IMG/VR virus record: IMGVR_UViG_3300033145_000155
Strand: one strand, 5' to 3'
Length of the DNA: 49,010 nt
DNA from: a virus
The position numbers and the translations under genes are program-made. The notes under the pieces are model-generated. The model did not search any database. It saw only the letters and a program-made list of their open reading frames with translations, and was not told where the DNA came from. Shown here in pieces: positions 7,803 through 46,341 of this stretch. Within the stretch, counting starts at the first letter, position 1, and each line of letters opens with the position of its first letter.

Positions 7803-8996
7803 ATGCCTAATAATAGAAATCTCCCCGACTGGTTGGATAGTTTCATGCTCCTCACAGAGAACTCCGAGCCTCCATTACTCTTCCGTAAGTGGACTGCTAT
7901 TTCCGCTATTGCTTCCGCTTTGCAAAGAAAGGTTAGAGTGGAGCTTGGACTATCCCTTACTTTTTATCCTAATTTATACATAGTCCTTGTCGGCCCAAGT
8001 GCTACCGGCAAGGGTACAGCAATGAAGTATGCTTCAGACATTATTGAACAGGTTCCCTCAATTCGTCTAAGTGCTCAAGCTACTTCGCTTCAAGCTCTTA
8101 TTCGCCGAATGAAGGAGACTAACCTAACCGACATTGACTTGGCTACAGGTGACCAACAGTACCATTCATCGCTTACTATTTTCTCCACCGAATTTACTGT
8201 ATTCTTAGGTTATCATAACAAGGAATTAATTTCCGCTCTTTGTGAATGGTATGACTGTCATGAACGGTGGAGTTATGAAACCATAGCAAGGAAAAAGGAA
8301 GAGGTCATTGGAGTCTGGGTTAACATCCTTGCAGGGACAACTCCTGATGCCATTCAAAGTTCACTACCTATTGAATCCATAGGAGGTGGTCTAACTTCCC
8401 GCATCATCTTTGTGTATGAAGAGAAGAGGGAAAAGTTAGTCATCTTTCCTACGAAAACAGATGAAGAAATCCAGCTTCAACAAATGCTAATTAATGATCT
8501 GGAACAAATAAGTATGCTGTCTGGAAAGATGGAATATGGTTCTGACTTTGCTGAAGCTTACTCTGCATGGTGTTATAATGCAGATGAGAATCCTCCCTTT
8601 TATGATCCAAAGTTTGATGGTTACTGTGGTCGGCGAAGGAATCATTTAATATCCTTGTCAATGATCTGTTGTGCAAGTAGAACCGACAGCATGATTATGA
8701 CAGCTGAGGATCTTGCAAGGGCTTCTGAATTCTTACTTGGAGCGGAAGTTAAAATGGGCAAGGTTTTCAGAGGTATGGGCAAAAGTGATATCTCATCTTT
8801 GATCAATGATGCTATTGTGTTCATTGAGAATTCAATTACTAAGGAAATCCCTGTTTGGCAATTTGCTAGACAGTTCGAAGGTAACATGGATAAGTTTATT
8901 ATGGACAGAGTTTTGTTTACATTGGAGGCTAGCAATTATATTAAGATAGTGAAAAGGCCTGGGACTGACACTTTGATAACCATATTAGATCGTTAA
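7803..8996 (+). CDS. P-loop NTPase, possibly a DUF3987-like replicative helicase or primase-associated protein
   Basis: Walker A VGPSATGKGT. Sits directly after the polymerase. The family guess is from memory only. Confidence 0.45.
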   Translation: MPNNRNLPDWLDSFMLLTENSEPPLLFRKWTAISAIASALQRKVRVELGLSLTFYPNLYIVLVGPSATGKGTAMKYASDIIEQVPSIRLSAQATSLQALIRRMKETNLTDIDLATGDQQYHSSLTIFSTEFTVFLGYHNKELISALCEWYDCHERWSYETIARKKEEVIGVWVNILAGTTPDAIQSSLPIESIGGGLTSRIIFVYEEKREKLVIFPTKTDEEIQLQQMLINDLEQISMLSGKMEYGSDFAEAYSAWCYNADENPPFYDPKFDGYCGRRRNHLISLSMICCASRTDSMIMTAEDLARASEFLLGAEVKMGKVFRGMGKSDISSLINDAIVFIENSITKEIPVWQFARQFEGNMDKFIMDRVLFTLEASNYIKIVKRPGTDTLITILDR

Positions 8997-9011
8997 ATTG
9001 TTAAACGATCT
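8987..9011. repeat. PE25 copy 4, at a convergent gene junction
   Basis: AGATCGTTA-AATTGTT-AAACGATCT. Overlaps the stop codons of both convergent genes. The 23-mer 8992-9014 is identical to 16783-16805. Confidence 0.85.
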
Positions 9012-12000
9012 TATTGACCACTCCTTAATTTTCCAACCTCCTCTCTAAATCCAGGAGACATGACACCACCAGCTTTAATAACTGTCCCTAATTCTTCATA
9101 CAGTTCTTTACGTTCCTCATCTGAAGCAGAGTTAAGTCTGTCAACATAAACCTTGGCTCTCGCTTCAGTTGTAAGACCTTTCAACCGTAACCAGAAAGTA
9201 CGATTAGGTAATCCCTTTATCTTTTCTTGGAATGTGAATCTATCCTTAAGTCTATCATATGTATCCTTGTCTTTAAACTCCCTCATATAATCTATAACTT
9301 CTTTCCTACTTACATTATCCTGATAGAGGTAGCCTTCAACTCTCATATCCAGCCCACGATTCTGAATCCATCTTTGAATATCACTTGCTTCCTTAGCCTC
9401 ATCTATCTTCTCTCCATATTGTGAGTAAGGATTAGTTACACTAAAGAATCTTTTAATAATAGGTATCTTAGACAATACCATTGCAAGGTGCTGTTCTTTC
9501 TTGTTCTTAGGAAGATCACCAAATGATGCATCGTAGCCTTGACCAAGTAAATAAGACCATAGTGTTCCACTGGTTGTTAATTCCTCTATCATATACTTAG
9601 TGCGTTCAGGAGACATCCCAGTTGCTTCACCAAAATCTATAAATGTTTGAGGTGTTTGACCAGGAATATATTCCTCTTTACTTTCTGGCCAACTAAAAGG
9701 TTTATCAGACTTCCTCCAAATATCTTCATTCATCCAGAAGTCTTTATTAGTAACATATCCAAGCGTTCCACTAATAGTAGGTGGCAACTCAGTTACCCCA
9801 ACAGGGCTTTGCTCCTTAAGTGAATCAACTATTCTATTAACATCTACTTCATTGCCAAGCCATTTATCTACACTACCTTCAAAGAATGTTTTGAAGAACT
9901 TCTGACCAGGGTCAATAGGTATTTTAATATAAGGATACCTCATCTGACCATGCTCATCTTCAAATCCAAAGTCGTCACCTAAAGTAAGACAAAGATTATT
10001 TTGTTCATCTATATTTCCTTTAAGTGCTTGTGAACTTTTTGGATGCATCTTGTTCTTAGCTATATAAAGGCCAGCTACCAATGCACCAAACTGTGCAAGT
10101 TTATAAGTAGAGCTTAAAGCTGTCCCACTCCCTGGTTTGAAAGATCTAAACAATCCTCTTGTACCTACAACAGCTGCATTAAGATAAGGAAAAGCATTAT
10201 CAGCTGCTTTAGTAATCCCTCCACCCTGACCAAAGTCCATATAGTCTCTTGCAGCAAATGTAGCTTCCTGTGTAATCTTTGGATTTTTATTAGCTTCTTC
10301 AAATGTAAGGCCTTGTTCCTTTGCACGATTTCTAATAACCCTATCTCTAATTGCCAGCCTAGTCATTATCTCAGACGTCTCACCAAAGTAACCTAAGAAA
10401 TTATATATAGCATCTATTGATCCTTCAACATGCCTACCACGTTGGAGTAGTCTACCTTGGTGAACAAGAAATTCCATCCCTCCACCTTCTTCAATATACT
10501 TTTCATAACGTCCCTTGCGAAGCGCTGCATCTGTAAGTATAGTTGCTAAGTCCCTACCTATCTGCAAACCAAATACTGGCATGTGAGGACTATAAACAGA
10601 TGTCCATTTTCCATCTTTAAATTCCCTAGCAGCAAACCAAGTATGCAATACATCTCTTGGTAAATTAGCCAACGCAAATCCCCAGTTAATACCAGTAGCA
10701 AATGTCCTTAACACTGGTGATGCACTAGCATACCTCAACACCTGCCCCATCTTATAACTTATCTCTGGGTTATTAGTTATCCACTCCTTTGACATTTCAG
10801 GTGAGATATAAAGTTCCTGGCGCTTACCTTTTTCATACACTAAAATTCGATGCCATCCAGTTGGTATCATATCCTTTGGGTCTTCTTTAATCCTAACAAA
10901 GGGATTAGTATTATCAGCCTTTGCAACTTCAAGCAAACTTAGATTAGCTCTATTATTCAATATACGTCCATAAGATCTATTAAATACTTCAAGAGCCATA
11001 ATCTCACTTGAGGATTCATAGATGTCAGTCTCCTTACCTTTTGACAAAGCCTCAACACCTGAACTGTAAATAGTTCTATCAGTCTTCTTCAATTTTGGGA
11101 CTTGTTTATCGTAGATTTCTACCAACTTAATCCTTCGATAGTTATGTGAAATAAGTGCATCATATTCTTGTTCAGAAATCAACTCAGCATCCAACAAATC
11201 TTTCAATGGTTTCTTCATCCAATCAAAGTATGCTCCAACTTTACCCCCCACACTTCCATCGTCCTTTAAATGATATAAGTTGTAAGCCTCAGCATCTGTA
11301 TAATCTCTCACTCCATTAACTTTTTTATATTTAAATATCTCCATTCTAGCAGCACATTCAGCTGGGGTATATCCTTCTGGATAGGCAAATTCTTTAGGTA
11401 ACTTGTACTTACTTATATCCAACATCCTTACTGACAATGCTAAGGTATCAAATACTATCTTATCACCTTTACTCATTCCACTGTAAGCTTCCTTCCTCAT
11501 CTGCTTTAACATATTGGCCGAGAGTGAACTAGCTCCTTTGGATAGGTACATCCTCTGTATTATATCATAACCTACATCACCAAGAGCTTCAAGCAACTTA
11601 CCACGGATATTTCCTGAACGGTCTACAAATGAACGATTAAAGTTTTCTCTTAACATCTGAGCAGCTTCTTTAGGTCTGAAAGCTTTCATCCCCTGAGATT
11701 TTCTTACATAGTCAAAACCTTTCCTAGCCCCTTCAATTAACTGCTTAGCACCTTCACCTGCTGCACCTGTAATGTCGTAGAGTTTGGTTGGTTCAGATCG
11801 TTTTGGAATTAAACGATCTGCTTTATCTAACCCTATCCCATACTTATCAAGTAATACATTTTCCTTTAACGGCCTCTTTGTCTTTTCAAATGTAAGGAAT
11901 TCTGAGTGAGCAATTCTAGGTATCCTTTGCTCTCCTCCCTTTAAATCCACTAAAAGACTACCTTTATTCACATACACAAACTTACCTAAATATCTCATAC

Positions 12001-14710
12001 CATATTTAGTAGCAAACCTTTTTATATAATCAGACACAGGAATATTATATGACCTAGCTTTATCATACCCTTTCATTGTAGATACTCTTTCTCCTGTAGA
12101 CTTAGATATGTCTTGAATTTTAATAGTTACCCTACCATAAGGCTTTAATACCCTAGCAAACTCTTTCATAGCTCCATCATGATAAGCTAGTAATGCATCT
12201 AAGCTTTCAAAACCTCCAAATCTTTTTGCCATTGTAGGTATCTGTTTACCAACAACTAAATATGGAGGATCACTTATTATTGAATTTATAGATTGATCAT
12301 CAAGAGGTATATGTTTAGATACATCAGCCTTTATTGTGTCTTTAGTCTGAGGTACTTTATCCATCTTAATTATAGGTCTTATTTCATTAGGTAGATTTTT
12401 CCATATTTTACCAGAGCTATAATTTACATCTAAGTCTACCTTACCTTTATGCATTAGGTTTATAATATTAGATAATAACTCATCATGGTTCTTACTCCAT
12501 GACTTAATTACTTTCTTAATATTTTTAGATGCTTGAGTTGGGTCTACCCCTGAATATAAGGTATTGCTACTATCATCTTTTATAATATTATCTACTGCAT
12601 CTAAAGTGGACAAATCTAAACGCTCAGTTCGTTTGACATCCAAACGATCTGCATTCCTTGCCCACTCCGCAGCGTCACTAACCGTCTCCTTCCAAACATT
12701 GAAGTCTTCACCTTTATCAAACTTATCTCTAACTTCATCAGCCCTTATAGCTAATTCACTAAGGTGATTCCTAATCTCTTCAATAGGAAGTTCTTCTCCA
12801 TTAAGCCATCTATTAACATCGTTGATTAGCTTACCAGTAAATAAGTCAGGGTCTCCCAAAACATTCTTAATTCGCTCTTTGTAAAGTTTATGTAATGTAT
12901 TAGTCTCTTCAACTGACTTGTCACGGAAAGGTGATTGGTCAGTGGATAATTCAGCAGGTTTAGGAGTACCTGTTTGAGTATCAAGTTCGGTGGTAAGTTC
13001 TTCACCTTTAGGTTTAATTCCTCTTGACCTTTCAAGCTTTTCCCACTGTTCTTTCACAGTCATCTTGTTGATTTCTTTGACTGGATAACCAGCTCGATTA
13101 AGTTCATGTTTTTCATCTTTGGTTAACTTAACTTCTTCTAATATATGCTTAAGTCTTTCTATATCTAACTTACTATAATCTGTTTTACCTTGTAACATAC
13201 TCTTGTCAGTAATTTCCCTATACTTATTAAAGAACATTGATCCCTCTTCTGTAAATACATCTGGAAAGGTATCAATCTTATCAGCAAGCCCACTACTTAA
13301 AATATAGTTATGAATACTTGTCATTATACCTTTTCTTTGATATTCTTTTAATGTATGTAAACCTTCTGTATAGGCTACATTATCATATATAGATACGTCT
13401 GCAGATCCAACTATTTTTTCTCCAATCTTTGCCTGTATTTTAAATTCTTTAGGGTCTTTAGTACTAATTACATTATAAGATATTTCTTCACCTTCAATCT
13501 TTTCTTTCTTTGTTTTCTTCTTTGCCTTCTTTTTTGCCTCAATTTTTTTCTCCTTGATTAAGTCTTGGCCAGTAGTTACTTTTTTCTTAACAGCCTTTTC
13601 TTTCTTAATCTCCTTAACCTTCTTCCCTTTCTCCTTCAAATCACCTTTTACTACACTCTCAGTATCTATATTCTCATTCAGTTTTCTTGCTTCAAGTTCT
13701 GCTTGTACCTTTTCAACATCTAAGACTTTCTGCTGTGCTGCTTTAACTACTTCATCAGGAATCCTATCAATCTCTTTTTGTTTAATAACTATTTTCTCAG
13801 CCTTATCCAAAATAGGCTTAGCGTCCTTTGCATATTGTTCATGACCTCCTTTGTATGTCCTACCCATGACAACTATTCCAACAACATCAGCTATAAAATG
13901 CAAAGCTCCTCTAACATTAGGCATGTATTCAAACATGTCTAACTCAGCCAATGTATGAATAGGCGTTGATGCAGCTGTGTAAGGTGCCATGCCTATCTCA
14001 CCTATAATAGCACTATAGTCTGTAGGTTCTTTCTCTCCACCTTCACCTACAGCTTTCTTACTTAAATACTTACCAAAGGTCATAGGTGATTGTAGTAATC
14101 TATCAAATGGTGCAACTATACTCTCATGCCATCTTCCCGCACCTTTCTCCATTCCTTTACTAGCAGCTTCATAAAGATCAAGGAGAGTGAAATCCTCTGA
14201 CTTGAGTATCCTAGAACCCATCTCCTTTGATGTTTCAACAGCTGCAGACAATGCACCTTGAGCAAATCCAGGAAGGGACATAGCAAAGGTAAGTGTCCCT
14301 CTCACAGCATCATAAGGATTCTTAGCCATTCCCCACAGTTGGTTAAGCGCTTCCATTGCACCACGCTTATCATCATCTGTCATGGTAGGAGGTTGGAATA
14401 AAGTAGAATCAGTAATACCTTCTCCAAAAGCCATCTCACCTACCTTTTCATAGAAAGGCTTTGGTGCAGCCGAGATCATCTGATTCATTATATGAGGATC
14501 TTCATATAAGTCAGAAACAGGTGCAGTCGAAGCTTCGAATTTAGGGACAGGAGCAAGCAACTCAGGTTGCGGCTGCCTGAGGAGGTCAAGCCCGGAAGTT
14601 ACTTGACCTCGGCCTTGACCCTGTCCCTGTTTCAGTAAATCCATTTCAGATTGTTTTGTTATTAAACGATCTGATTGTTCACCCCTTAATAAATCAAGAC
14701 CTGACGGCAT
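9011..14710 (-). CDS. Giant multidomain (polyvalent-type) virion/internal protein, ~1,899 aa, with a GNAT-like module and a DPPY methyltransferase-like module
   Basis: Start set at the MPSGLDLL ATG at 14710 (SD GGAGGAA 8 nt upstream). GNAT-like region HTLKEYQRKGIMTSIHNYIL. MTase-like region SIISDPPYL...RVLKPYGRV...AHSEFLTFEK. It is the last gene of the structural operon, after internal-protein-like genes. Confidence 0.75.
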   Translation of the reverse strand: MPSGLDLLRGEQSDRLITKQSEMDLLKQGQGQGRGQVTSGLDLLRQPQPELLAPVPKFEASTAPVSDLYEDPHIMNQMISAAPKPFYEKVGEMAFGEGITDSTLFQPPTMTDDDKRGAMEALNQLWGMAKNPYDAVRGTLTFAMSLPGFAQGALSAAVETSKEMGSRILKSEDFTLLDLYEAASKGMEKGAGRWHESIVAPFDRLLQSPMTFGKYLSKKAVGEGGEKEPTDYSAIIGEIGMAPYTAASTPIHTLAELDMFEYMPNVRGALHFIADVVGIVVMGRTYKGGHEQYAKDAKPILDKAEKIVIKQKEIDRIPDEVVKAAQQKVLDVEKVQAELEARKLNENIDTESVVKGDLKEKGKKVKEIKKEKAVKKKVTTGQDLIKEKKIEAKKKAKKKTKKEKIEGEEISYNVISTKDPKEFKIQAKIGEKIVGSADVSIYDNVAYTEGLHTLKEYQRKGIMTSIHNYILSSGLADKIDTFPDVFTEEGSMFFNKYREITDKSMLQGKTDYSKLDIERLKHILEEVKLTKDEKHELNRAGYPVKEINKMTVKEQWEKLERSRGIKPKGEELTTELDTQTGTPKPAELSTDQSPFRDKSVEETNTLHKLYKERIKNVLGDPDLFTGKLINDVNRWLNGEELPIEEIRNHLSELAIRADEVRDKFDKGEDFNVWKETVSDAAEWARNADRLDVKRTERLDLSTLDAVDNIIKDDSSNTLYSGVDPTQASKNIKKVIKSWSKNHDELLSNIINLMHKGKVDLDVNYSSGKIWKNLPNEIRPIIKMDKVPQTKDTIKADVSKHIPLDDQSINSIISDPPYLVVGKQIPTMAKRFGGFESLDALLAYHDGAMKEFARVLKPYGRVTIKIQDISKSTGERVSTMKGYDKARSYNIPVSDYIKRFATKYGMRYLGKFVYVNKGSLLVDLKGGEQRIPRIAHSEFLTFEKTKRPLKENVLLDKYGIGLDKADRLIPKRSEPTKLYDITGAAGEGAKQLIEGARKGFDYVRKSQGMKAFRPKEAAQMLRENFNRSFVDRSGNIRGKLLEALGDVGYDIIQRMYLSKGASSLSANMLKQMRKEAYSGMSKGDKIVFDTLALSVRMLDISKYKLPKEFAYPEGYTPAECAARMEIFKYKKVNGVRDYTDAEAYNLYHLKDDGSVGGKVGAYFDWMKKPLKDLLDAELISEQEYDALISHNYRRIKLVEIYDKQVPKLKKTDRTIYSSGVEALSKGKETDIYESSSEIMALEVFNRSYGRILNNRANLSLLEVAKADNTNPFVRIKEDPKDMIPTGWHRILVYEKGKRQELYISPEMSKEWITNNPEISYKMGQVLRYASASPVLRTFATGINWGFALANLPRDVLHTWFAAREFKDGKWTSVYSPHMPVFGLQIGRDLATILTDAALRKGRYEKYIEEGGGMEFLVHQGRLLQRGRHVEGSIDAIYNFLGYFGETSEIMTRLAIRDRVIRNRAKEQGLTFEEANKNPKITQEATFAARDYMDFGQGGGITKAADNAFPYLNAAVVGTRGLFRSFKPGSGTALSSTYKLAQFGALVAGLYIAKNKMHPKSSQALKGNIDEQNNLCLTLGDDFGFEDEHGQMRYPYIKIPIDPGQKFFKTFFEGSVDKWLGNEVDVNRIVDSLKEQSPVGVTELPPTISGTLGYVTNKDFWMNEDIWRKSDKPFSWPESKEEYIPGQTPQTFIDFGEATGMSPERTKYMIEELTTSGTLWSYLLGQGYDASFGDLPKNKKEQHLAMVLSKIPIIKRFFSVTNPYSQYGEKIDEAKEASDIQRWIQNRGLDMRVEGYLYQDNVSRKEVIDYMREFKDKDTYDRLKDRFTFQEKIKGLPNRTFWLRLKGLTTEARAKVYVDRLNSASDEERKELYEELGTVIKAGGVMSPGFREEVGKLRSGQ
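11795..11819. repeat. PE25 copy 5 (intragenic, perfect arms)
   Basis: AGATCGTTT-TGGAATT-AAACGATCT. Read on the minus strand it encodes DRLIPKRS. Confidence 0.85.
12626..12650. repeat. PE25 copy 6 (intragenic)
   Basis: AGTTCGTTT-GACATCC-AAACGATCT. Encodes DRLDVKRT. Confidence 0.75.
14648..14672. repeat. PE25 copy 7 (intragenic, near the 5' end of the giant gene)
   Basis: AGATTGTTT-TGTTATT-AAACGATCT. Encodes DRLITKQS. Confidence 0.8.
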
Positions 14711-15812
14711 ATCTAACTTCCTCCATATCTCCAGATGGCCATTCAACTGTCCAAATTATAGTCTTACCATCTTCAGCCCATTTAACTTCTTTAATCTTTC
14801 CACCACCGGCAGTGATCTTATCTTCAATAAACTGTACTTTAACCTCAGAAGTTTTTTGCTCTTGTTCACCGGTCTCCATCCTAAACAATTCATTTTGAAC
14901 TTCATCAGAACTCATATATTTATTAAGGTCTTCAGTCCACTTAGGATCTTTGAAATAAGTCTGACCTTTTAATCCAGCCTTAGCTTTTATCTCAGTTAAT
15001 TTCTCTCCAAGAGTCAAACCACCACCAAGAGCTGTAATGTCTCTAAGCCATGTATTGAAATCTGGCTCAGTGTCATTAGGTCCTCTATAACCACCTGCTA
15101 CAGCCTCTTCATAATCCTTCTTATGGCCAGTCCAAGCAGAGTTTTGATACTCTTCAAAACTACCTTTAAATGAACCACCTGCTTCAGTTTGAGCATATTC
15201 GTAATTTTTAATAGCATTTGTACGCTCATCCTTATTTGCAGACTTATACCAATCAAGGTATTGCTTAGTAGTCAATTTAATATCTGTCCCAGGTATAGTA
15301 ATTGAAGGCGTCTTCTCACCAATTAATGCATCATAGTAATCCATCATCTTCTGCTTATACAATGTATCAGACACATCACTAACCTTTTTCTGTCTCAATG
15401 CCTCGACACTTTGAGCACCACTAAGGGCACTGGAAATGTCTTGAGGTGTCAGGCCAGCCAAATCGGCACCTGAGATACTTGGCTGACTAGAAACGAAAGG
15501 GTTTGCCATTCCTCCTGGTTGCTTGATAGGAGCAAGACTTTGATCTGGGGTGAACATGCTACCTCCAGACAAAGTGCCAAGAGCAGAAGCTGGAATATCC
15601 ATCTTTATTCCATCTTTACTAATTGCCCCTTTTGTATCATCAGGGCCTAGCATCTGCTGTAACAGCTTCATGTAATTCTGTGCAGCGATGTTCTGCATAG
15701 TAACTTTATTCACATTAGCTCCTATTGGCTGACCAGCTCCAATGTCCTGTCCTGCAGCTGCAAGATACTGCAAGAACATTTTGTTTTGCATGAGATTTTC
15801 TAAACCTTCCAT
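14694..15812 (-). CDS. hypothetical structural protein (372 aa), possibly an internal virion/ejection protein
   Basis: SD GGAGG. Sits between a Gly-rich membrane-like protein and the giant protein. Confidence 0.6.
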   Translation of the reverse strand: MEGLENLMQNKMFLQYLAAAGQDIGAGQPIGANVNKVTMQNIAAQNYMKLLQQMLGPDDTKGAISKDGIKMDIPASALGTLSGGSMFTPDQSLAPIKQPGGMANPFVSSQPSISGADLAGLTPQDISSALSGAQSVEALRQKKVSDVSDTLYKQKMMDYYDALIGEKTPSITIPGTDIKLTTKQYLDWYKSANKDERTNAIKNYEYAQTEAGGSFKGSFEEYQNSAWTGHKKDYEEAVAGGYRGPNDTEPDFNTWLRDITALGGGLTLGEKLTEIKAKAGLKGQTYFKDPKWTEDLNKYMSSDEVQNELFRMETGEQEQKTSEVKVQFIEDKITAGGGKIKEVKWAEDGKTIIWTVEWPSGDMEEVRYAVRS

Positions 15813-20919: not shown

Positions 20920-20944
20920 AGATCGTTTAATTATTAAACGATCA
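20920..20944. repeat. PE25 copy 9
   Basis: AGATCGTTT-AATTATT-AAACGATCA. The core GATCGTTTAAT-T-ATTAAACGATC is a perfect 11-bp-arm palindrome. Confidence 0.85.
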
Positions 20945-23643: not shown

Positions 23644-23668
23644 AGTTTGTTTATTTATTAAACGATCT
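23644..23668. repeat. PE25 copy 11
   Basis: AGTTTGTTT-ATTTATT-AAACGATCT. On the minus strand it is immediately followed by GGAGG. Confidence 0.8.
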
Positions 23669-28479: not shown

Positions 28480-28504
28480 AGATCGTTTTATAATTTAACG
28501 ATCT
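28480..28504. repeat. PE25 copy 12
   Basis: AGATCGTTT-TATAATT-TAACGATCT. On the minus strand it runs directly into GGAG, then the ATG at 28468. Confidence 0.85.
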
Positions 28505-32885: not shown

Positions 32886-34532
32886 TCATATCCTTACCTC
32901 ATTAGATTGTTTTATTGTTAAACGATCTTGGGCCTTAGCTAACTTTTCACGCCAAGACTTTGAGTTAATTACTTTAGGTTTCATAGTGTTAAATTGTATA
33001 ACTTGTTTATTGTCAATGTCTTTGACAGTTTCTTTCACATAGGAGAATTTGTCAAGCTCGTATACTTGATTGCTTCTATTGCTGCCATGAACTACCATGT
33101 AAGTGTAAGAAGGTGGAATGGTGTAGACTGTGTCAAATAGGTCACCCATTCTTAAATGAACAGTTTCGTATAAGTCTATTTTTTGTTCTTTCTTTTGCAC
33201 TAAAGCTATGAAAGGGCTTGTTCTAGATCTACCATGAGGAGCGTAGAATGTGTATACTTGGCCATCTGGAGATTGACCAAAGACTTGGTAATTAATGAGG
33301 AAGTTATCTTCCTTCATTATCCTAGCCATGTGCTTCATGTGAGCTATCCAACCAGGAACTACCCAATCATCTATGTCCATGCGAGCCATGATGGGAGTGC
33401 GAGGATAGTTGAGACGCTTGGTAATGTTCTCAGGACATCCCTTGTCAGTCTCCTTAGCCCAATTCTTTGATTGTTCAACTGAGTTTCTCCACTGGGATAA
33501 ATCACCTGAAGTGTATAGAAAGTTGATGTTAAGGCTTCCCCAATCAAGGGATTTGATTCGCTCAGTTGCTTCACAGTCTTCTGGGCCGACAGAGAGATAA
33601 ACAGCAAAGTCTTGGTCAGTTTGAGATTTAAGACTGTTGATAAAGTAATTTTGCATCATAGATAGGTGATTCTCATCTATGACACCTAACTCGTGGAAAG
33701 GTCCAACTTTGTTGTAGATTGCCCTGGACACAACAATGGTTTCTAAGGAAGAAGGATTTGGGCCAACCTTTATTCGATTACGAGGAAACCAAACACAGGA
33801 GAAGCCCCACTTTGATTCAAACAGCTTACGACCTTTTTGAATTAACTCTTCATTGTTTTTAGTCTTTCCATATTTATTATGTCTATCACCTCTATCGTTG
33901 TAAGCAATTAGATTTCTGTCTGTGATGGTGGCTATCTTCCAACCATTTTTTCTAACATTCATTGAGAAGTCAAAGTCCCAAGAACCGATGAAGTATCTTA
34001 TGTCTATGATGTCAGGGATTAAGGCTACTTCTTGACGAATCAGCATTGATGTTCCACCTATGAGGTCAACATCTGCAGTTGGACTAGTTATGGATTCAAT
34101 AGGAGTGCATGTTACCTTGGTGCCGTTGACAGTTCTATGATATACAAGCTGATTATGCATCACATCTACCATACCATAGTCAGGGTTGTTAGTTAAGAAC
34201 TCTAACTCCGCATCCAATGTACCTTCCTTATAATCCATATCATTGTCAGACATGAAGATGAAAGGTGTTTTAGCTGCACGTTTTAAGTTAGTTGCACGTG
34301 GAGGAGCTATGCCACCATTTCCAGAGGAGAAGTAAATGTCTTTTTCAACGAATCCAGATGCAGATTCAATGATTAGGTCTTTCATCACCTTAGATACTTT
34401 TTCTTCTCCTTGAACATGGAGACAGAGATTTAAGGAAAGTGAAGTAGACTTAGGTATGCTAAGCAAGGTTTTGGCTAACCTATCTTCCCTCATCCAAGAT
34501 ACTATAGCTACAGTGATTTGTGGTTTAGTCAT
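32886..34532 (-). CDS. two-domain glycosyltransferase (tandem GT-A/GT2-like modules)
   Basis: N-terminal ITVAIVSW...MSDNDMD (DxD). Second module SLKSQTDQDFAVYL...ARMDIDDW. Confidence 0.65.
   Translation of the reverse strand: MTKPQITVAIVSWMREDRLAKTLLSIPKSTSLSLNLCLHVQGEEKVSKVMKDLIIESASGFVEKDIYFSSGNGGIAPPRATNLKRAAKTPFIFMSDNDMDYKEGTLDAELEFLTNNPDYGMVDVMHNQLVYHRTVNGTKVTCTPIESITSPTADVDLIGGTSMLIRQEVALIPDIIDIRYFIGSWDFDFSMNVRKNGWKIATITDRNLIAYNDRGDRHNKYGKTKNNEELIQKGRKLFESKWGFSCVWFPRNRIKVGPNPSSLETIVVSRAIYNKVGPFHELGVIDENHLSMMQNYFINSLKSQTDQDFAVYLSVGPEDCEATERIKSLDWGSLNINFLYTSGDLSQWRNSVEQSKNWAKETDKGCPENITKRLNYPRTPIMARMDIDDWVVPGWIAHMKHMARIMKEDNFLINYQVFGQSPDGQVYTFYAPHGRSRTSPFIALVQKKEQKIDLYETVHLRMGDLFDTVYTIPPSYTYMVVHGSNRSNQVYELDKFSYVKETVKDIDNKQVIQFNTMKPKVINSKSWREKLAKAQDRLTIKQSNEVRI
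32904..32928. repeat. PE25 copy 13 (inside the 3' end of the GT gene)
   Basis: AGATTGTTT-TATTGTT-AAACGATCT. Encodes DRLTIKQS. Confidence 0.8.
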
Positions 34533-37045: not shown

Positions 37046-37070
37046 AGACCGTTTATTTATTAAACGATCT
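37046..37070. repeat. PE25 copy 15 (in the divergent control region)
   Basis: AGACCGTTT-ATTTATT-AAACGATCT, about 26 nt upstream of the late -35 box. Confidence 0.8.
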
Positions 37071-40997: not shown

Positions 40998-41022
40998 AGT
41001 TTGTTCAATCATTAAACAATCT
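40998..41022. repeat. PE25 copy 18
   Basis: AGTTTGTTC-AATCATT-AAACAATCT, followed by TAAAGAAAGGAGG as in copy 1. Confidence 0.7.
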
Positions 41023-42535: not shown

Positions 42536-42562
42536 GTGGGAGTAAATACACAATGATTTCCG

Positions 42563-42591
42563 TTGACATTGTGTCAAACTTTTGTTATCAT
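42563..42591 (+). promoter_or_regulatory. near-consensus sigma70 promoter with an extended -10
   Basis: TTGACA, 17 nt, TATCAT, preceded by TGt. The -35 box is part of the palindrome TTGACA-TTG-TGTCAA. Confidence 0.65.
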
Positions 42592-42639
42592 GTAATTTCA
42601 TCAGATGGGAAACCATCAAAAAAACCAAGGAGGTTAGTA

Positions 42640-43011
42640 ATGAAGAAAGTAGTTGTAGACGCAAAAGTACCTGAGAACGTAGAAAAGGGGATCTCAGCAA
42701 TGACAGCAGCTATCACCGTTGACTATGCCGAGAATATTAAGGAAGCAGTTGAGATGTTTGGTGAGGAAGCAGTTCTCACAAATGCTTTCGCAAACTGGAG
42801 GGTAACACTGCAGGGCAACATTAGAGGTGCACTCAGACGTGGTGAGAATGCAGATGCTATTGCGGCTCGTCTCGCCAGTGCAAAGATGGGTGTTGCACAG
42901 AGTGGTGGAAAAGCTGACCCAGTTCAGGCTTACCTGGCGGCTTTCCAGAGTGCTACTCCCGACAAGCAGAAAGAAATGCTTGCAGAACTGCAGAAGAGAG
43001 CAGCTAAGTAA
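42640..43011 (+). CDS. hypothetical protein (123 aa), paralog of the 37570 gene product; monocistronic unit
   Basis: Start moved to MKKVVV (SD AAGGAGG). Has its own promoter and terminator. Visibly more G+C-rich than its surroundings. Confidence 0.75.
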   Translation: MKKVVVDAKVPENVEKGISAMTAAITVDYAENIKEAVEMFGEEAVLTNAFANWRVTLQGNIRGALRRGENADAIAARLASAKMGVAQSGGKADPVQAYLAAFQSATPDKQKEMLAELQKRAAK

Positions 43012-43026
43012 GTAAGTAAAACTAAG

Positions 43027-43058
43027 ACCTCCTGGTGTAAAGCCAGGAGGTTCTTTTT
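43027..43058 (+). terminator. Rho-independent terminator
   Basis: ACCTCCTGG, 7-nt loop, CCAGGAGGT, then TCTTTTT. Confidence 0.8.
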
Positions 43059-43096
43059 AACACTTAAAAATGGTACATTGAAGTAGAGTGTCTAAC

Positions 43097-43143
43097 AGTT
43101 TGTTTAATGATTAAACGATCTTTAATATTAAACGATCTTTAAT
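43097..43143. repeat. PE25 copy 19 plus a tandem duplication of its right arm
   Basis: AGTTTGTTT-AATGATT-AAACGATCT (43097-43121). The 17-mer ATTAAACGATCTTTAAT occurs twice in tandem (43110-43126 and 43127-43143). Confidence 0.8.
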
Positions 43144-43145
43144 AT

Positions 43146-43244
43146 AGTGATAGCGGTACAGCGGTAATGTACCTGCGCAACTCATCAGCGCATAAAGGGG
43201 TGTAGATTAGATTTACCGTATCGGTGAGAATCCGGTCTATCACT
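43146..43244 (+). ncRNA. non-canonical class-II tRNA-like cloverleaf (identity unassignable)
   Basis: 7-8-bp acceptor stem, 4-bp D stem (the loop has A14, GG and A21 equivalents), 5-bp anticodon stem with the 9-nt loop AACTCATCA, 6-bp variable-arm hairpin, and a 5-bp T stem abutting the acceptor 3' strand. The T loop is TGAGAAT, not TTCRANY, and position 8 is C. Confidence 0.35.
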
Positions 43245-43251
43245 TTAATAT

Positions 43252-43353
43252 GACGGGAGTGGCAACTATAGTAACCCTAAGGATTTAATCCTTGCAGAGC
43301 AGATAGTGTGAAAGTCACTCAAAATACTAATACACAAGATTCTGCCTCCCGTC
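43252..43353 (+). ncRNA. second structured RNA candidate in the same leader
   Basis: The 8-bp closing stem GACGGGAG/CTCCCGTC encloses the hairpin AAGGAT-tta-ATCCTT and the stem GCAGA/TCTGC. Confidence 0.3.
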
Positions 43354-43376
43354 TCACAATGAAAGGAGAAAAAGTA

Positions 43377-43607
43377 ATGGAGTTTCCAAAAGGTATACAT
43401 GGACATGACAGAGAGCATCCCGAAAGAAATCTGAAATGGTGTAAAGAACAAAAAGAGAAAATAGCAAAAGGGATAGAAGATAACCTGACAAGAGAATTTC
43501 AGAGAGATGAAAAATTTGAAAATCTAATGAAAGAAGTTGATAAAGGGGATTTTGAGATGGGTGTCAATGTCGGCACAGAAGAAAATCCCAGATGGATACA
43601 GCTTTAG
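43377..43607 (+). CDS. hypothetical protein (76 aa)
   Basis: Start moved to MEFPKG (SD AAAGGAGAA). Confidence 0.6.
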   Translation: MEFPKGIHGHDREHPERNLKWCKEQKEKIAKGIEDNLTREFQRDEKFENLMKEVDKGDFEMGVNVGTEENPRWIQL

Positions 43608-43715
43608 AAGAGGTTAATGCAAGAGGCTAGAAAATAAATATCGGTACAGCCCGCTTTGTGAAAACTGCGATGCCTCTCACAACAATCTTGACGAGAGTGG
43701 TTAAGGAGAAAGAAT

Positions 43716-43961
43716 ATGGGTGAGATAGCAGAAATGATGCTTAATGGGTTGCTTGACGGGGAGACCGGGGAATATATAGGTGACCTGAATATGAAACGCT
43801 ATGGTATGAAAGAACCAGGATTCCCTATTTCCTACGAGCGTGAGACAAGAGAAGCGGATGCGATAAAAACTAAATGTCCTCAATGCGGTAAAAGATTAAA
43901 AACAAGGGCTGGAGCATTACAACATCTTTGGGATAAACATGGCATGAAAACAGGTTTTTAG
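43716..43961 (+). CDS. C2H2 zinc-finger protein (81 aa)
   Basis: CPQC-x12-H-x4-H (KCPQCGKRLKTRAGALQHLWDKH). SD AAGGAG. Confidence 0.65.
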   Translation: MGEIAEMMLNGLLDGETGEYIGDLNMKRYGMKEPGFPISYERETREADAIKTKCPQCGKRLKTRAGALQHLWDKHGMKTGF

Positions 43962-43989
43962 TATAATATAATGAAAGGAGCAAAAGCAA

Positions 43990-45963: not shown

Positions 45964-46341
45964 ATGAGGTATGTATATTGTGCTAATTGCGGCACCCGCT
46001 TATCAATCATGAGAAAGGCTATGCCTAAGTATGGCAAGATAATCGACATTGTAGAATATCACGAGTGTCCTGATGAGCCTATCGAGATTAACCTCGAACC
46101 TGTTGACATTCCTAATTTTATTGAAACTAAGGATAAGAACAAGTTCGTTCAACAATTAAACGATCTCCAACCACCTTCAATTTTAAGTTCAATAGGTTCA
46201 GATCTTAAAGATAAACGTAAAACAGAGAATGTTAAAGGCCCTAACTTATCCTCGGCGCCAACTGGCTTGAGTGACTTAATAGACTCAATGCAGAATTCAA
46301 TCCCAGAGGGTGACATAGGAAAGGAACCTAATGATGCCTAA
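45964..46341 (+). CDS. hypothetical zinc-ribbon-like protein (125 aa)
   Basis: CANC...HEC. Contains an in-frame PE25 copy. Confidence 0.65.
   Translation: MRYVYCANCGTRLSIMRKAMPKYGKIIDIVEYHECPDEPIEINLEPVDIPNFIETKDKNKFVQQLNDLQPPSILSSIGSDLKDKRKTENVKGPNLSSAPTGLSDLIDSMQNSIPEGDIGKEPNDA
46142..46166. repeat. PE25 copy 20 (intragenic)
   Basis: AGTTCGTTC-AACAATT-AAACGATCT. Confidence 0.7.

What the first reader, a model, noticed from the sequence alone, without database searches (positions are those of the whole stretch)
43146..43244. Non-canonical class-II tRNA-like cloverleaf with a 9-nt anticodon loop
The region folds into a full cloverleaf.

Helices:
- Acceptor GTGATAG (43147-53) pairs with CTATCAC (43237-43); A43146-T43244 can add an eighth pair.
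- D stem GTAC/GTAC, with the loop AGCGGTAAT (A14, GG and A21 equivalents present).
- Anticodon stem TGCGC/GCGCA.
- Variable-arm hairpin GTAGAT-tag-ATTTAC.
- T stem ATCGG/CCGGT, which directly abuts the acceptor 3' strand. G53, T54, A58 and C61 equivalents are present.

Deviations from a standard tRNA:
- C at position 8.
- T loop TGAGAAT, lacking the TPsiC dinucleotide.
- A 27-nt variable region.
- A 9-nt anticodon loop, AACUCAUCA, containing two UCA triplets and CAU.
- No encoded CCA.

Five mutually compatible helices in tRNA order are unlikely by chance. Expanded anticodon loops are characteristic of frameshift or suppressor tRNAs, and three ORFs in this genome are interrupted at UGA (see the separate findings). 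It could also be a decayed tRNA or a tRNA-like regulatory or priming element.
Basis: seen in the sequence. Interest (0 to 1): 0.7.

Follow-up and report, generated by a model that had tools for sequence, protein, structure and literature searches.

The report
Mobile tRNA-shaped leader RNA in phage
The cloverleaf-like fold is real and conserved, but it is not a working tRNA or stop-codon suppressor: it is one half of a ~225-base non-coding RNA module that unrelated phages carry just upstream of a gene's ribosome-binding site, and its function is still unproven.

Summary
A relaxed cloverleaf grammar hits only this site in the window, and 0 of 400 shuffled genomes gave an equally clean hit.

It is not a tRNA:
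- ARAGORN (down to 60% threshold) and Rfam find nothing.
- U8 and the T-loop UC are missing.
- The 'anticodon' loop is 9, 10 or 8 nt, with unrelated sequences in three haplotypes.
- TGA is an ordinary stop (18 of 74 ORFs), and no sense-strand ORF is split by UGA.

Near-identical contigs, plus one otherwise unrelated phage (85% identity over 242 nt), carry the element together with a second closed-stem element B (43252-43353). The acceptor-like stem, D-like hairpin, second hairpin and T-like arm are kept. Element A has three compensatory pairs and B has one. The variable-arm hairpin is not kept.

A+B is an optional ~225-nt insertion directly upstream of the Shine-Dalgarno sequence in two unrelated phage lineages, always in gene sense. 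A B-like copy in the other phage ends in a canonical tRNA T arm, which suggests tRNA ancestry.

Best reading: a horizontally exchanged, tRNA-shaped structured leader RNA, probably a pre-tRNA-mimicking processing or stability signal. Its function is unproven.

The parts
43026..43052 (+). Intrinsic terminator hairpin plus T-run that closes the upstream gene (ORF 42553-43011).
   Evidence: 11-bp stem, 6 G-C pairs, followed by CTTTTT. The same terminator-then-leader layout is seen in about 45 relatives.
43067..43086 (+). Family-conserved motif after the terminator (AAAATGGTACATTGAAGTAG; relatives have aaaTGTACc/a). It is a candidate promoter for the downstream leader.
   Evidence: It sits at the same distance after the terminator in most relatives. 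It does not recur elsewhere in the window. The promoter role is an inference.
43097..43121 (.). One copy of the genome-wide palindrome AGATCGTTTAA-N3-TTAAACGATCT. In relatives this lies directly before the Shine-Dalgarno sequence.
   Evidence: the half-site has 25 hits against 3.3 expected. Relatives show palindrome-then-RBS with no insert.
43110..43143 (+). A 17-bp tandem duplication (ATTAAACGATCTTTAAT x2), specific to this contig.
   Evidence: family D2. The duplication is absent from L012-L015.
43137..43145 (+). A/U-rich spacer CTTTAATAT that precedes element A. It forms the 5' edge of the shared module.
   Evidence: family D1. The same 9-mer precedes A in the unrelated phage L052. The blastn match between the two phages starts at 43136.
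43146..43244 (+). Element A, a tRNA-shaped four-way junction. Closing stem 43146-53/43237-44. D-like hairpin 43155-60/43168-73. Second hairpin 43174-78/43188-92. T-like arm 43220-24/43232-36 with the 7-nt loop 43225-31.
   Evidence: present and non-random; 98.6% of cells paired over 3 haplotypes, with 3 two-sided compensatory pairs; the CM finds it only in the window, L012-L015 and L052.
43179..43208 (+). Hypervariable segment inside A, comprising the loop and 3' strand of the second hairpin plus most of the 'variable region'.
   Evidence: 15 substitutions and 28 inserted nt here between the window and L012/L013. The 1,450 nt upstream differ at about 0.6%. The segment differs again in L052.
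43243..43251 (+). Second copy of the CTTTAATAT spacer, between A and B.
43252..43353 (+). Element B, a second closed-stem structured domain. It has the 8-bp stem GACGGGAG/CTCCCGTC, a small D-like hairpin, the hairpin AAGGAT-TTA-ATCCTT with a hypervariable loop, and a long arm GCAGA...TCTGC abutting the closing stem. A 46-nt core is invariant.
   Evidence: z = -3.24. (consensus fold, one compensatory pair, A-U to G-C). (conserved in L052). CM R2 also aligns the B-like element C of L052, whose equivalent arm is a canonical tRNA T arm.
43362..43379 (+). Shine-Dalgarno sequence AAAGGAG and the ATG (43377) of the downstream 76-aa ORFan (43377-43607). B ends 8 nt before the Shine-Dalgarno sequence.
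   Evidence: The same ...CTCCCGTCTCACAATGAAAGGAG junction occurs in L012-14 and at element C of L052.

Best explanation
**What it is**
Element A (43146-43244) is the first of two structured RNA domains, A and B, which together with their A/U-rich spacers form a ~225-nt non-coding module (about 43137-43358). The module is transcribed in gene sense as part of the leader of the gene that follows. Phages gain, lose and exchange it as an optional cassette, always at the same kind of place: between a leader hairpin and the Shine-Dalgarno sequence.

**What it is not**
A has the topology of a tRNA: an 8-bp acceptor-like stem stacked on a 5-bp T-like arm with a 7-nt loop, a D-like hairpin and an 'anticodon-position' hairpin. 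It probably descends from tRNA genes. It is not a decoding tRNA.

**Most likely mechanism (inferred, not shown)**
The acceptor/T-arm minihelix mimics a pre-tRNA, so host tRNA-processing enzymes (RNase P at the 5' side, RNase Z or RNase E at the 3' side) cut the leader. This would release compact, stable tRNA-like RNAs and leave the downstream mRNA with a short, defined 5' end next to its ribosome-binding site. It would work like a 'tRNA punctuation' or stability signal. The anticodon-position loop and the variable region are not needed for that recognition, so they are free to vary.

**Shown versus inferred**
- Shown: the fold, its conservation, its strand, its optional and mobile distribution, and that it is not a tRNA.
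- Inferred: transcription, processing, and any effect on expression.
For: **The fold is present and non-random**
-.

**Structure is conserved across three haplotypes of A**
- 24 pairs, 98.6% of cells paired, against 25-41% when the 3' partners are slid.
- Two-sided compensatory changes occur at two pairs of the second hairpin (G-C to A-U, C-G to U-A) and at the first T-stem pair (A-U to G-C).
- The competing hairpin TTACCG/CGGTGA, which RNAalifold preferred when only near-identical sequences were available, is broken in L052. The T arm is kept there.
- B has one compensatory pair.

**The + strand is the relevant one**
- The one-sided changes that fall at pairs of the A model and of B's closing stem are C>T or A>G, which give G.U on the + strand and would give A.C on the - strand.
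- The element is co-oriented with the downstream gene in every context.

**Optional and mobile**
- About 45 relatives of the upstream gene lack it and have a 63-180 nt leader instead of about 365 nt. The CM searches give no hits in them.
- L052 shares only this 242-nt stretch (85% identity) with the window over the 14 kb available.
- L055 has L052's promoter and leader but no A+B.

**Conservation pattern fits recognition of the acceptor/T/D body only**
- The closing stem, D-like arm and T arm are conserved. Only the anticodon-position loop and the variable region are hypervariable.

**Possible tRNA ancestry**
- Element C in L052 is homologous to B (CM 18.7 bits over the full model). It ends in GCAGG-TTCAAGT-CCTGC followed by CTCCCGTC, a canonical T arm plus acceptor strand.

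**Constant spacing to the RBS**
- B or C ends ...CTCCCGTCTCACAAUGAAAGGAG in three contexts.
Against: - There are no expression data, so transcription start, processing and RNA stability are all untested.
- Only three distinct haplotypes of A exist. The closing stem and the D-like hairpin never vary, so covariation says nothing about them. The shuffle control for the whole structure is weak (36 of 500 shuffles reach the observed values).
- In the L012 haplotype the second hairpin and the T arm have low predicted probability (0.04 and 0.01). The four-way junction there is 4 kcal/mol above the MFE.
- The T loop lacks the UUC that forms the tRNA elbow. Position 54 is U in two haplotypes and C in the third, so a tRNA-like L-shape is not assured.
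- B carries 37 nt where a 7-nt T loop would be, so B is a poor RNase P/Z mimic. Its invariant 46-nt core suggests some other specific interaction.
- Sigma-70-like hexamers (TTGTTT-17-TAATAT before A; TTAATA-16-TATAGT inside B) could start transcripts inside the closing stems. That would destroy them.
- L013 has two G>T changes that break B's closing stem.
Confidence: 0.4

Rival explanations
1. A trans-acting stable small RNA. A (and B) would be released as tRNA-like RNAs that act on host factors, for example as decoys for tRNA-targeting defence nucleases or for tRNA-modifying and processing enzymes, or as guides through their hypervariable loops.
For: - The scaffold is conserved while the loops are hypervariable: the A second-hairpin loop, and the B hairpin loop TTT>CAC>GTG. 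This occurs between phages whose flanking DNA is about 99% identical.
- The module is an accessory cassette in a variable gene region between ORF152 and the ligase.
- It is shared by unrelated phages.
Against: - The module always sits at a fixed short distance from a Shine-Dalgarno sequence, which an independent sRNA gene would not need.
- It has no terminator of its own.
- No complementarity of 12 nt or more was found between the variable segments and the phage genome or the relatives.
- The host genome is unknown, so host targets cannot be tested.
Confidence: 0.15
2. A cis-regulatory leader of another kind. It could be a ligand- or protein-binding translational switch in which B's closing stem (GGGAG/CUCCC) competes with the SD. 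Alternatively it could be a put/nut-like RNA that makes RNA polymerase terminator-resistant.
For: - B's 3' strand contains the anti-SD-like CCUCC about 12 nt upstream of AAAGGAG, and B has an invariant 46-nt core.
- In L052 the module lies downstream of a strong sigma-70-like early promoter. The B-like element C lies after a small HTH gene on the divergent arm, which are the positions occupied by nutL/nutR or putL/putR in lambdoid phages (the lambdoid layout is from my own knowledge).
Against: - There is no Rfam riboswitch or leader match at E<=10 in the window, L012 or L052.
- The possible CUCC/GGAG pairing is only 4 bp across a 15-nt loop, so it would be a weak switch.
- The downstream genes are unrelated ORFans, so there is no common metabolite logic.
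- In the window the module follows a terminator rather than preceding one.
Confidence: 0.15
3. A functionless remnant. A and B would be decaying tRNA-gene relics, or a selfish non-coding insertion, that spread by recombination at short homologies (CTTTAAT and AATGAAAGGAG). They would look conserved only because the transfer was recent.
For: - The module shows presence/absence polymorphism with microhomology at both junctions. The native sequence in relatives is ...TCTTTAATGAAAGGAG, e.g. L047 and L003.
- It is single-copy and rare: only L012-L015 and L052 were found in every collection searched.
- tRNA hallmarks are degraded.
Against: - Of the differences between the haplotypes that fall in stems, four pairs change on both sides with pairing kept (three in A, one in B), and the remaining one-sided changes are mostly G.U-compatible. 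Differences otherwise pile up in loops. This is the signature of selection on structure.
- The exceptions are the outermost pair of the second hairpin in L052, the innermost pair of B's hairpin in L012/L013, and two breaks in B's closing stem in L013.
- A 46-nt block of B is identical in unrelated phages that are only 85% identical overall.
Confidence: 0.15
4. A DNA-level element, in which the inverted repeats act as operators, a replication origin or a cruciform rather than as RNA.
For: - Perfect palindromes are present (GGTACA-N7-TGTACC and TGCGC-N9-GCGCA).
- The element lies next to a genome-wide palindromic motif and a 17-bp tandem repeat.
- The - strand folds at least as well in silico (z = -2.9).
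Against: - G.U pairs (in the T stem; in the second hairpin of L012 and L052; in B) would be A.C mismatches on the other strand.
- A whole stem is replaced with its pairing kept, which is not how dimer-binding operators evolve.
- Orientation relative to the downstream gene is constant.
Confidence: 0.05
5. One reading: a functional non-canonical class-II tRNA with an expanded anticodon loop that suppresses UGA or shifts the reading frame.
For: - Cloverleaf topology with an 8/5 acceptor/T branch and a 6-bp D-like stem recalls tRNA-Sec.
- UCA occurs twice in the window's loop.
- Non-canonical tRNAs such as the allo-tRNAs do exist in sediment bacteria and phages (PMC5389517).
Against: - Not detected by ARAGORN or Rfam.
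- Loop length and sequence are not conserved, and UCA is lost in L012/L013 and L052.
- U8, U55 and C56 are absent.
- TGA is a normal stop codon and no ORF needs suppression.
Confidence: 0.02

Closest known systems
Class-II tRNAs, bacterial tRNA-Sec and allo-tRNAs (Mukai et al. 2017, PMC5389517, read)
   Same: - Four-way junction, with the T arm abutting the acceptor stem.
- An 8-bp acceptor with a 5-bp T stem, as in bacterial tRNA-Sec.
- A long (6-bp) D-like stem and a D-loop containing AGCGG.
- A long extra region.
- Allo-tRNAs also occur in sediment bacteria and phages, have very diverse anticodons, and some were proposed to be regulatory RNAs.
   Different: - Not found by any tRNA detector.
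- The anticodon-position loop is 8-10 nt rather than 7, with no conserved U33 or R37.
- C replaces U8, and the T loop is YGARAAU instead of UUCRANY.
- The D loop is 7 nt rather than a tetraloop.
- The extra region (27-54 nt) has no conserved hairpin.
- The acceptor branch is 13 bp, not the 12 bp (8/4 or 9/3) that defines allo-tRNAs.
tRNA-like processing signals: tRNA-mRNA co-transcripts (E. coli thrU-tufB operon), mitochondrial 'tRNA punctuation', and RNase P-processed phage RNAs (P1/P7 C4 RNA, P4 CI RNA). These are cited from my own knowledge, not checked here.
   Same: - A tRNA-shaped unit embedded in a longer transcript next to a coding region.
- Only the acceptor/T-arm body needs to be kept.
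- A/U-rich spacers flank each unit.
   Different: - No cleavage has been shown here.
- The units are not functional tRNAs.
- The module is an optional, exchangeable cassette rather than a fixed part of an operon.
Viral tRNA-like structures (plant-virus 3' TLS, the tmRNA tRNA-like domain, YrlA/Y RNA tRNA-like modules). Reviews PMC5723415 and PMC4810234 were listed but not read.
   Same: An RNA that copies the tRNA shape without decoding, encoded by a virus.
   Different: - Those elements keep the T-loop/D-loop elbow and usually a CCA or aminoacylatable end.
- This one sits in a 5' leader, lacks both features, and matches none of the Rfam models for them.
HK022 put RNAs and lambda nut sites (my own knowledge)
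   Same: - Two-domain structured RNA in early leaders.
- In L052, one copy lies on each divergent early arm.
   Different: - No sequence or Rfam similarity.
- Put RNAs are two simple stem-loops, not multi-way junctions.
- The window copy follows a terminator.
tRNA-derived non-coding mobile elements (eukaryotic SINEs; bacterial MITEs)
   Same: - Short, non-coding and tRNA-derived in appearance.
- Presence/absence polymorphism.
- Terminal inverted complementarity, with short direct repeats at the edges.
   Different: - Single copy per genome.
- The flanking CTTTAATAT is part of the module in both contexts rather than a target-site duplication.
- No transposase or reverse-transcriptase partner was seen.

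Membership tests
Canonical tRNA | Recognised by tRNA search models (ARAGORN; Rfam tRNA covariance model) | tested here: not met
   There are 0 genes in the window and none at the element even with ARAGORN thresholds lowered to 60%. Calls at lower settings fall at other coordinates or on the other strand. Rfam gives no hit at the gathering score or at E<=10 on 601 nt. The L012 and L052 copies are also negative.
Canonical tRNA | 7-nt anticodon loop with U33 and a purine at 37, and an anticodon conserved among orthologues | tested here: not met
   The loops are AACUCAUCA (9 nt), UUUUGGCACA (10 nt, or 8 nt if the U-A pair closes) and GUUAGCCA (8 nt) in the three haplotypes.
Canonical tRNA | Tertiary-core nucleotides: U8, G18-G19 pairing with U55-C56, and the T54-A58 pair | tested here: not met
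   Position 8 is C. Positions 55-56 are G and A in all haplotypes. Position 54 is U in two haplotypes and C in L052. GG and A58 are present.
Canonical tRNA | Acceptor stem of at least 7 bp with a 5-bp T stem stacked directly on it, and a 7-nt T loop | tested here: met
   Stems 43146-53/43237-44 and 43220-24/43232-36 with loop 43225-31. The T stem shows a compensatory A-U to G-C change.
Canonical tRNA | Aminoacylation, CCA addition and use on the ribosome | not testable with these tools
   This needs biochemistry. No CCA is encoded.
Bacterial tRNA-Sec / UGA suppressor | UCA anticodon in a 7-nt loop, a 6-bp D stem with a 4-nt loop, an 8/5 branch, and in-frame UGA codons to read | tested here: not met
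   The 8/5 branch and the 6-bp D-like stem are present. However, the D loop is 7 nt, UCA is not conserved, and Rfam tRNA-Sec gives no hit. TGA ends 18 of 74 ORFs and no sense-strand ORF is split by TGA.
allo-tRNA (PMC5389517) | 12-bp acceptor branch in an 8/4 or 9/3 configuration, tRNA-Sec-like D stem with a tetraloop, long V-arm hairpin, 7-nt anticodon loop | tested here: not met
   The branch is 8+5 = 13 bp, and the fifth T pair covaries. The D loop is 7 nt. The V-region hairpin is not conserved.
tmRNA | tRNA-like domain plus a tag reading frame, detectable by ARAGORN or Rfam | tested here: not met
tRNA-like RNase P/RNase Z substrate (functional class) | Coaxial acceptor/T-arm minihelix of about 12 bp with a T loop | tested here: met
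   A 13-bp stack is predicted and conserved in A. Element C has a canonical T arm. B has an expanded arm in its place.
tRNA-like RNase P/RNase Z substrate (functional class) | Actual cleavage at the 5' and 3' borders | not testable with these tools
   This needs in vitro cleavage assays or end mapping.
MITE-like transposable element | Terminal inverted repeats, a target-site duplication created at insertion, and multiple copies | tested here: not met
   An 8-bp terminal complementarity exists. However, the flanking CTTTAATAT is present at both borders in two unrelated contexts, so it belongs to the module. There is a single copy per genome.
Known riboswitch, leader or ribozyme families (Rfam 15) | A match to a curated covariance model | tested here: not met
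   There is no hit overlapping 43146-43353 at E<=10, and none in the L012 or L052 copies.

The most novel reading that the evidence does not exclude
A+B is a member of an undescribed class of mobile, tRNA-derived non-coding cassettes in phages. In this reading a conserved tRNA-shaped scaffold is recognised by host tRNA enzymes or by tRNA-targeting defence nucleases. Its anticodon-position loops are under diversifying selection, so the RNA acts in trans as a programmable decoy or guide in the phage-host arms race, and not merely as a leader.
Probability: 0.12. Interest if true: 0.8.

Novelty: new variant of a known kind. Interest (0 to 1): 0.5.

Why it matters
The finding removes a tempting but wrong annotation: an exotic suppressor tRNA with a 9-nt anticodon loop in a phage that in fact uses the standard genetic code.

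In its place it documents something less expected. A structured, apparently tRNA-derived, non-coding module behaves like an accessory gene:
- It is optional.
- It is exchanged between unrelated phages of one community.
- It is always placed right before a ribosome-binding site.
- It has a conserved scaffold with hypervariable loops.

Phage accessory regions are usually mined only for proteins. If such RNA cassettes control mRNA processing or expression, or interfere with host tRNA biology, they would be an overlooked layer of phage gene regulation or counter-defence. The element matches no Rfam family, so it is a candidate new RNA motif. The claim is directly testable with a few transcripts and a reporter.

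Tried and rejected
**Standard detectors**
- ARAGORN on the window and L052 found nothing, and nothing at the element when relaxed.
- Rfam at the gathering score and at E<=10 on the window, L012 and L052 regions found nothing relevant.

**Similarity searches**
- blastn of 42900-43500 against 50,697 phage records: no match.
- Exact-pattern scans for pieces of A:
  - IMG/VR gave 0 with a 24-mer that happens to span a variable base.
  - IMG/VR gave only L052 with a 21-mer.
  - GTDB genomes gave 0.
- Exact-pattern scans for pieces of B and C:
  - IMG/VR gave only L052.
  - GTDB genomes gave 0 for the B core and for C's T-arm-plus-acceptor 22-mer. No host tRNA or prophage source was identified.
It returned 36 relatives, none with the module and none close.
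- The downstream 76-aa protein is an ORFan.
- Look-ups of cluster members gave the near-identical contigs L012-L015 but no further haplotypes.
- A homologue of the L012 downstream gene led to L055. It lacks the module but is informative as an empty site.

**Ideas rejected**
- UGA recoding.
- Coding potential of A: the haplotype lengths are 99, 127 and 107 nt, so indels are not multiples of 3.
- Antisense targets of the variable segments within the phage or its relatives: nothing beyond 9-13-nt chance matches.
- Paralogues of A or B elsewhere in the window or in about 50 related loci.
- A Cas12a-repeat resemblance of GTAGAT...ATTTAC, because the strand order is wrong (by reading the sequence).
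- Group I intron, integron attC and bridge/omega-RNA readings: no Rfam hit, and no RT, recombinase or TnpB partner gene was seen among the neighbouring ORFs screened.

**Left undecided**
- The alternative 3' hairpin TTACCG/CGGTGA, favoured by RNAalifold on near-identical sequences, was rejected after L052.
- A possible D-loop to variable-region pairing (GCGGUAA/UUACCGU), and a competing long-range helix CGGUAC/GUACCG that is favoured in L052, could not be decided with three haplotypes.
Full report
**1. The observation**

- Closing stem: AGTGATAG 43146-53 with CTATCACT 43237-44.
- D-like hairpin: GTAC/GTAC, which extends to the 6-bp hairpin GGTACA 43155-60 / TGTACC 43168-73.
- Second hairpin: TGCGC 43174-78 / GCGCA 43188-92, around the 9-nt loop AACTCATCA.
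- A 27-nt region containing GTAGAT-TAG-ATTTAC.
- T-like arm: ATCGG 43220-24 / CCGGT 43232-36, around TGAGAAT, directly abutting the 3' strand of the closing stem.

- It hits one place on both strands of the 49-kb window, and that place is this element.
- 33 of 400 dinucleotide-shuffled genomes have some hit, but those hits contain 3-13 G.U pairs.
- None of the 400 has a hit with at most 1 G.U. The real element has 1 G.U and 12 G-C among 21 pairs.

The same junction with the 6-bp D-like stem and no variable-arm hairpin scores -29.9. The D-like and second hairpins are near-certain in the ensemble (0.93-0.98). The closing stem is moderate (about 0.55). The T arm is weak (about 0.3). The variable-arm hairpin is negligible (about 0.09).

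**2. It is not a tRNA**

- ARAGORN finds no tRNA or tmRNA in the window. It finds none at this site even at 60% of its score threshold, and at still lower settings it only produces calls at other coordinates or on the other strand.
- Rfam 15 gives nothing at gathering thresholds. It gives no tRNA, tRNA-Sec, tmRNA or other hit overlapping the element at E<=10 on a 601-nt slice.
- U8 is C, and positions 55-56 of the T loop are GA.
- The suggested motive for a suppressor is absent. In a rough gene call, TGA terminates 18 of 74 ORFs, often at ATGA overlaps. No sense-strand frame is interrupted by in-frame TGA in a way that would join real ORFs.

**3. Relatives**

The window is a phage genome. It encodes a DNA polymerase, an ATP-dependent ligase and a ParB-methyltransferase. 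Its polymerase is 48% identical to that of Desulfofustis phage LS06-2018-MD01. It has no nucleotide match among deposited phages.

The element lies in a 365-nt gap between ORF 42553-43011 and a 76-aa ORFan that starts at ATG 43377.

About 45 loci encoding homologues of the upstream ORF (42-77% identity) were fetched from IMG/VR and JGI metagenomes.
- Their gaps are mostly 63-180 nt (a few reach about 255-295 nt). The common layout is: terminator, a conserved aaaTGTAC motif, a palindrome, then AATGAAAGGAG and the start codon.
- None contains the element (CM searches).

Four near-identical JGI contigs (L012-L015, 96-98% identical) do contain it.
- In L012/L013 a 30-nt stretch (43179-43208) carries 15 substitutions and 28 inserted bases. 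The preceding 1,450 nt differ at about 0.6%.
- The loop becomes UUUUGGCACA.
- The 3' strand of the second hairpin changes GCGCA>GUGCG, giving two G.U pairs.
- The extra region doubles in length.
- The T stem gains a G.U pair.

**4. A second domain and an unrelated carrier**

Immediately downstream, after a second copy of the spacer CTTTAATAT, lies element B (43252-43353). It has an 8-bp closing stem GACGGGAG/CTCCCGTC and folds with z = -3.24. It is conserved in L012-L014, and its hairpin loop changes TTT>CAC.

A 25-mer from B's core hit one IMG/VR contig, L052. Over the 14 kb available, L052 shares nothing with the window at the nucleotide level except a 242-nt stretch, 43136-43367, at 85% identity. 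There is only one weak protein similarity elsewhere.

In L052 the A+B module sits on the gene-sense strand of a divergent intergenic region. It is about 170 nt downstream of a sigma-70-like promoter (TTGACA-17-TATCTT) and directly before the ribosome-binding site of the first gene.

A contig with the same promoter and leader, L055, runs straight from the leader hairpin into the Shine-Dalgarno sequence without A+B.

The module is therefore an optional insertion in two unrelated phage lineages. In both it lies between a leader hairpin and the SD.

**5. Structure conservation**

Three haplotypes of A were aligned to a covariance model.
- 24 pairs are 98.6% paired, against 25-41% for slid controls.
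- Three pairs change on both sides with pairing kept. Two are in the second hairpin (G-C>A-U, C-G>U-A). One is the first T-stem pair (A-U>G-C).
- With only three sequences the shuffle control is weak (36 of 500).
- The closing stem and the D-like hairpin never vary.

The hairpin TTACCG/CGGTGA competes with the T arm and was preferred by RNAalifold on the near-identical set. It is broken in L052, while the T arm is kept there.

B shows one compensatory pair (A-U>G-C) and a 46-nt invariant core.

One-sided changes at pairs of the A model and of B's closing stem are C>T or A>G, giving G.U on the + strand and A.C on the other strand. Together with the constant co-orientation with the downstream gene, this points to an RNA read from the + strand.

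Exceptions:
- The outermost pair of the second hairpin is lost in L052.
- The innermost pair of B's hairpin is lost in L012/L013.
- L013 has two G>T changes that break B's closing stem.
- The variable-arm hairpin is not conserved in L012 or L052.

**6. A link to tRNA**

On the other arm of L052's divergent region, after a 64-aa HTH-like gene, lies a third element, C (L052 12207-12322).
- It begins TAATATGAGGGG...GGCAAC and ends ...GCAGG-TTCAAGT-CCTGC-CTCCCGTC-TCACAATGAAAGGAG.
- That ending is a canonical tRNA T arm followed by the same 3' closing strand, spacer and SD as B.
- The B covariance model aligns C over its full length (18.7 bits). It places C's T stem on B's GCAGA/UCUGC stem, which in B encloses 37 nt instead of a 7-nt loop.

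B also has cloverleaf topology: a closing stem, a small D-like hairpin, an anticodon-position hairpin with a hypervariable loop, and an arm abutting the closing stem.

This suggests, but does not prove, that the family descends from tRNA genes. No bacterial genome in the GTDB set contains C's T-arm-plus-acceptor 22-mer.

**7. Interpretation**

*Shown:*
- The fold.
- Its conservation, with a few compensatory changes.
- Its strand.
- Its tandem partner B.
- Its optional, exchanged distribution and its fixed position next to an SD.
- Its failure of every tRNA membership test except the acceptor/T-arm geometry.

*Inferred:* what it does.

The conservation pattern keeps the closing stem, the D-like arm and the T arm. 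It leaves the anticodon-position loop and the extra region free to vary in length and sequence. This is what one expects if only the tRNA 'body' is recognised, as by RNase P, RNase Z or the CCA-adding enzyme.

Each unit is preceded by an A/U-rich spacer, and the last unit ends 8 nt before the SD.

I therefore favour a pre-tRNA-mimicking processing or stability signal in the leader, with confidence about 0.4.

Rivals:
- A trans-acting tRNA-like decoy or guide RNA (0.15).
- Another kind of cis leader, either a switch using B's GGGAG/CUCCC/GGAG triad or a put-like antiterminator (0.15).
- A functionless tRNA relic or selfish insertion (0.15).
- A DNA-level element (0.05).

**8. Comparison and novelty**

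The nearest described RNAs are class-II tRNAs, tRNA-Sec and the allo-tRNAs of Mukai et al. (PMC5389517), and tRNA-like structures used by viruses.

The element shares their topology but fails their defining features, and it matches no Rfam family.

I rate it a new variant of a known kind: a virus-encoded tRNA-like structured RNA. Its unusual property is that it behaves as an exchangeable non-coding cassette.

The evidence base is thin. There are three haplotypes of A, four of B and one C, all from one series of JGI samples, with no expression data. Interest is therefore moderate (0.5).

Noticed in passing
window, about 18-25 sites, e.g. 8988-9010, 20921-20943, 23645-23667, 28481-28503, 32905-32927, 37047-37069, 41000-41021, 43097-43121, 46143-46165: A ~25-bp palindrome, AGATCGTTTAA-N3-TTAAACGATCT, containing two GATC sites. 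The half-site TTAAACGATC has 25 hits at up to 1 mismatch against 3.3 expected. Nearly all copies lie at gene boundaries, typically 0-10 nt before the Shine-Dalgarno sequence, on both gene strands. One arm is near-perfect and the other degenerate (AGTTTG or AGATTG). Relatives keep the palindrome with symmetric changes. It may be an operator, a processing hairpin, or a gene-cassette boundary like the PeSL elements of T4-like phages.
   Followed up: partly
window 43110-43143: A perfect 17-bp tandem duplication (ATTAAACGATCTTTAAT x2) that adds an extra palindrome half-site and an extra CTTTAATAT. It is absent from the near-identical contigs L012-L015.
   Followed up: yes
window 43067-43086 and the equivalent place in about 30 related loci: A conserved aaaTGTAC(c/a) motif sits at a fixed distance after the terminator of the ORF152 homologue across a diverse phage family. 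It may be a promoter (-10-like TACNNT). It does not recur elsewhere in the window.
   Followed up: partly
window 43371-43962: Gene-cassette replacement. In contigs 96-98% identical on both sides (L012-L014), the 76-aa and 81-aa ORFs of the window are replaced by an unrelated 100-106-aa gene. That gene is itself only 65% identical between L012 and L014. The stretch between ORF152 and the DNA ligase is a hot spot of accessory-gene turnover across the family.
   Followed up: partly
window 43308-43607: The public gene call (99 aa, GTG start at 43308) overlaps the 3' part of element B. The ATG at 43377, preceded by AAAGGAG, is the more likely start (76 aa). The protein has no homologue among 5.8 billion sequences other than itself.
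   Followed up: yes
L052 (minus strand) 11672-11850 and L055 1-240: A sigma-70-like promoter (TTGACA-17-TATCTT with an upstream TG) is followed by a ~130-170-nt leader conserved between L052 and L055. The leader folds very stably (-52 kcal/mol, z = -4.1). It is another unannotated structured leader RNA.
   Followed up: no
L052 12207-12322 (+): Element C, a B-like element with a canonical tRNA T arm (GCAGG-TTCAAGT-CCTGC) but an imperfect acceptor stem (6 of 8 pairs) and a long irregular central arm. It lies between a 64-aa HTH-like gene and the next gene. ARAGORN does not call it.
   Followed up: partly
window 9011-14746 (-): A 1,911-aa ORF whose only recognisable part is a DNA methyltransferase-like region (residues about 739-957). 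It contains two internal copies of the palindrome motif, at 11809 and 14662.
   Followed up: no
window 43161-43167 with 43213-43219; 43155-43160: The D-like loop GCGGUAA is complementary to UUACCGU, which lies just 5' of the T arm (7 pairs). The 5' region contains a direct repeat, GCGGTAC-A-GCGGTAA. In L052 the T>G change (UUACCG>GUACCG) instead favours a long-range helix with the first repeat. This may indicate a pseudoknot or a conformational switch, but three haplotypes cannot settle it.
   Followed up: partly
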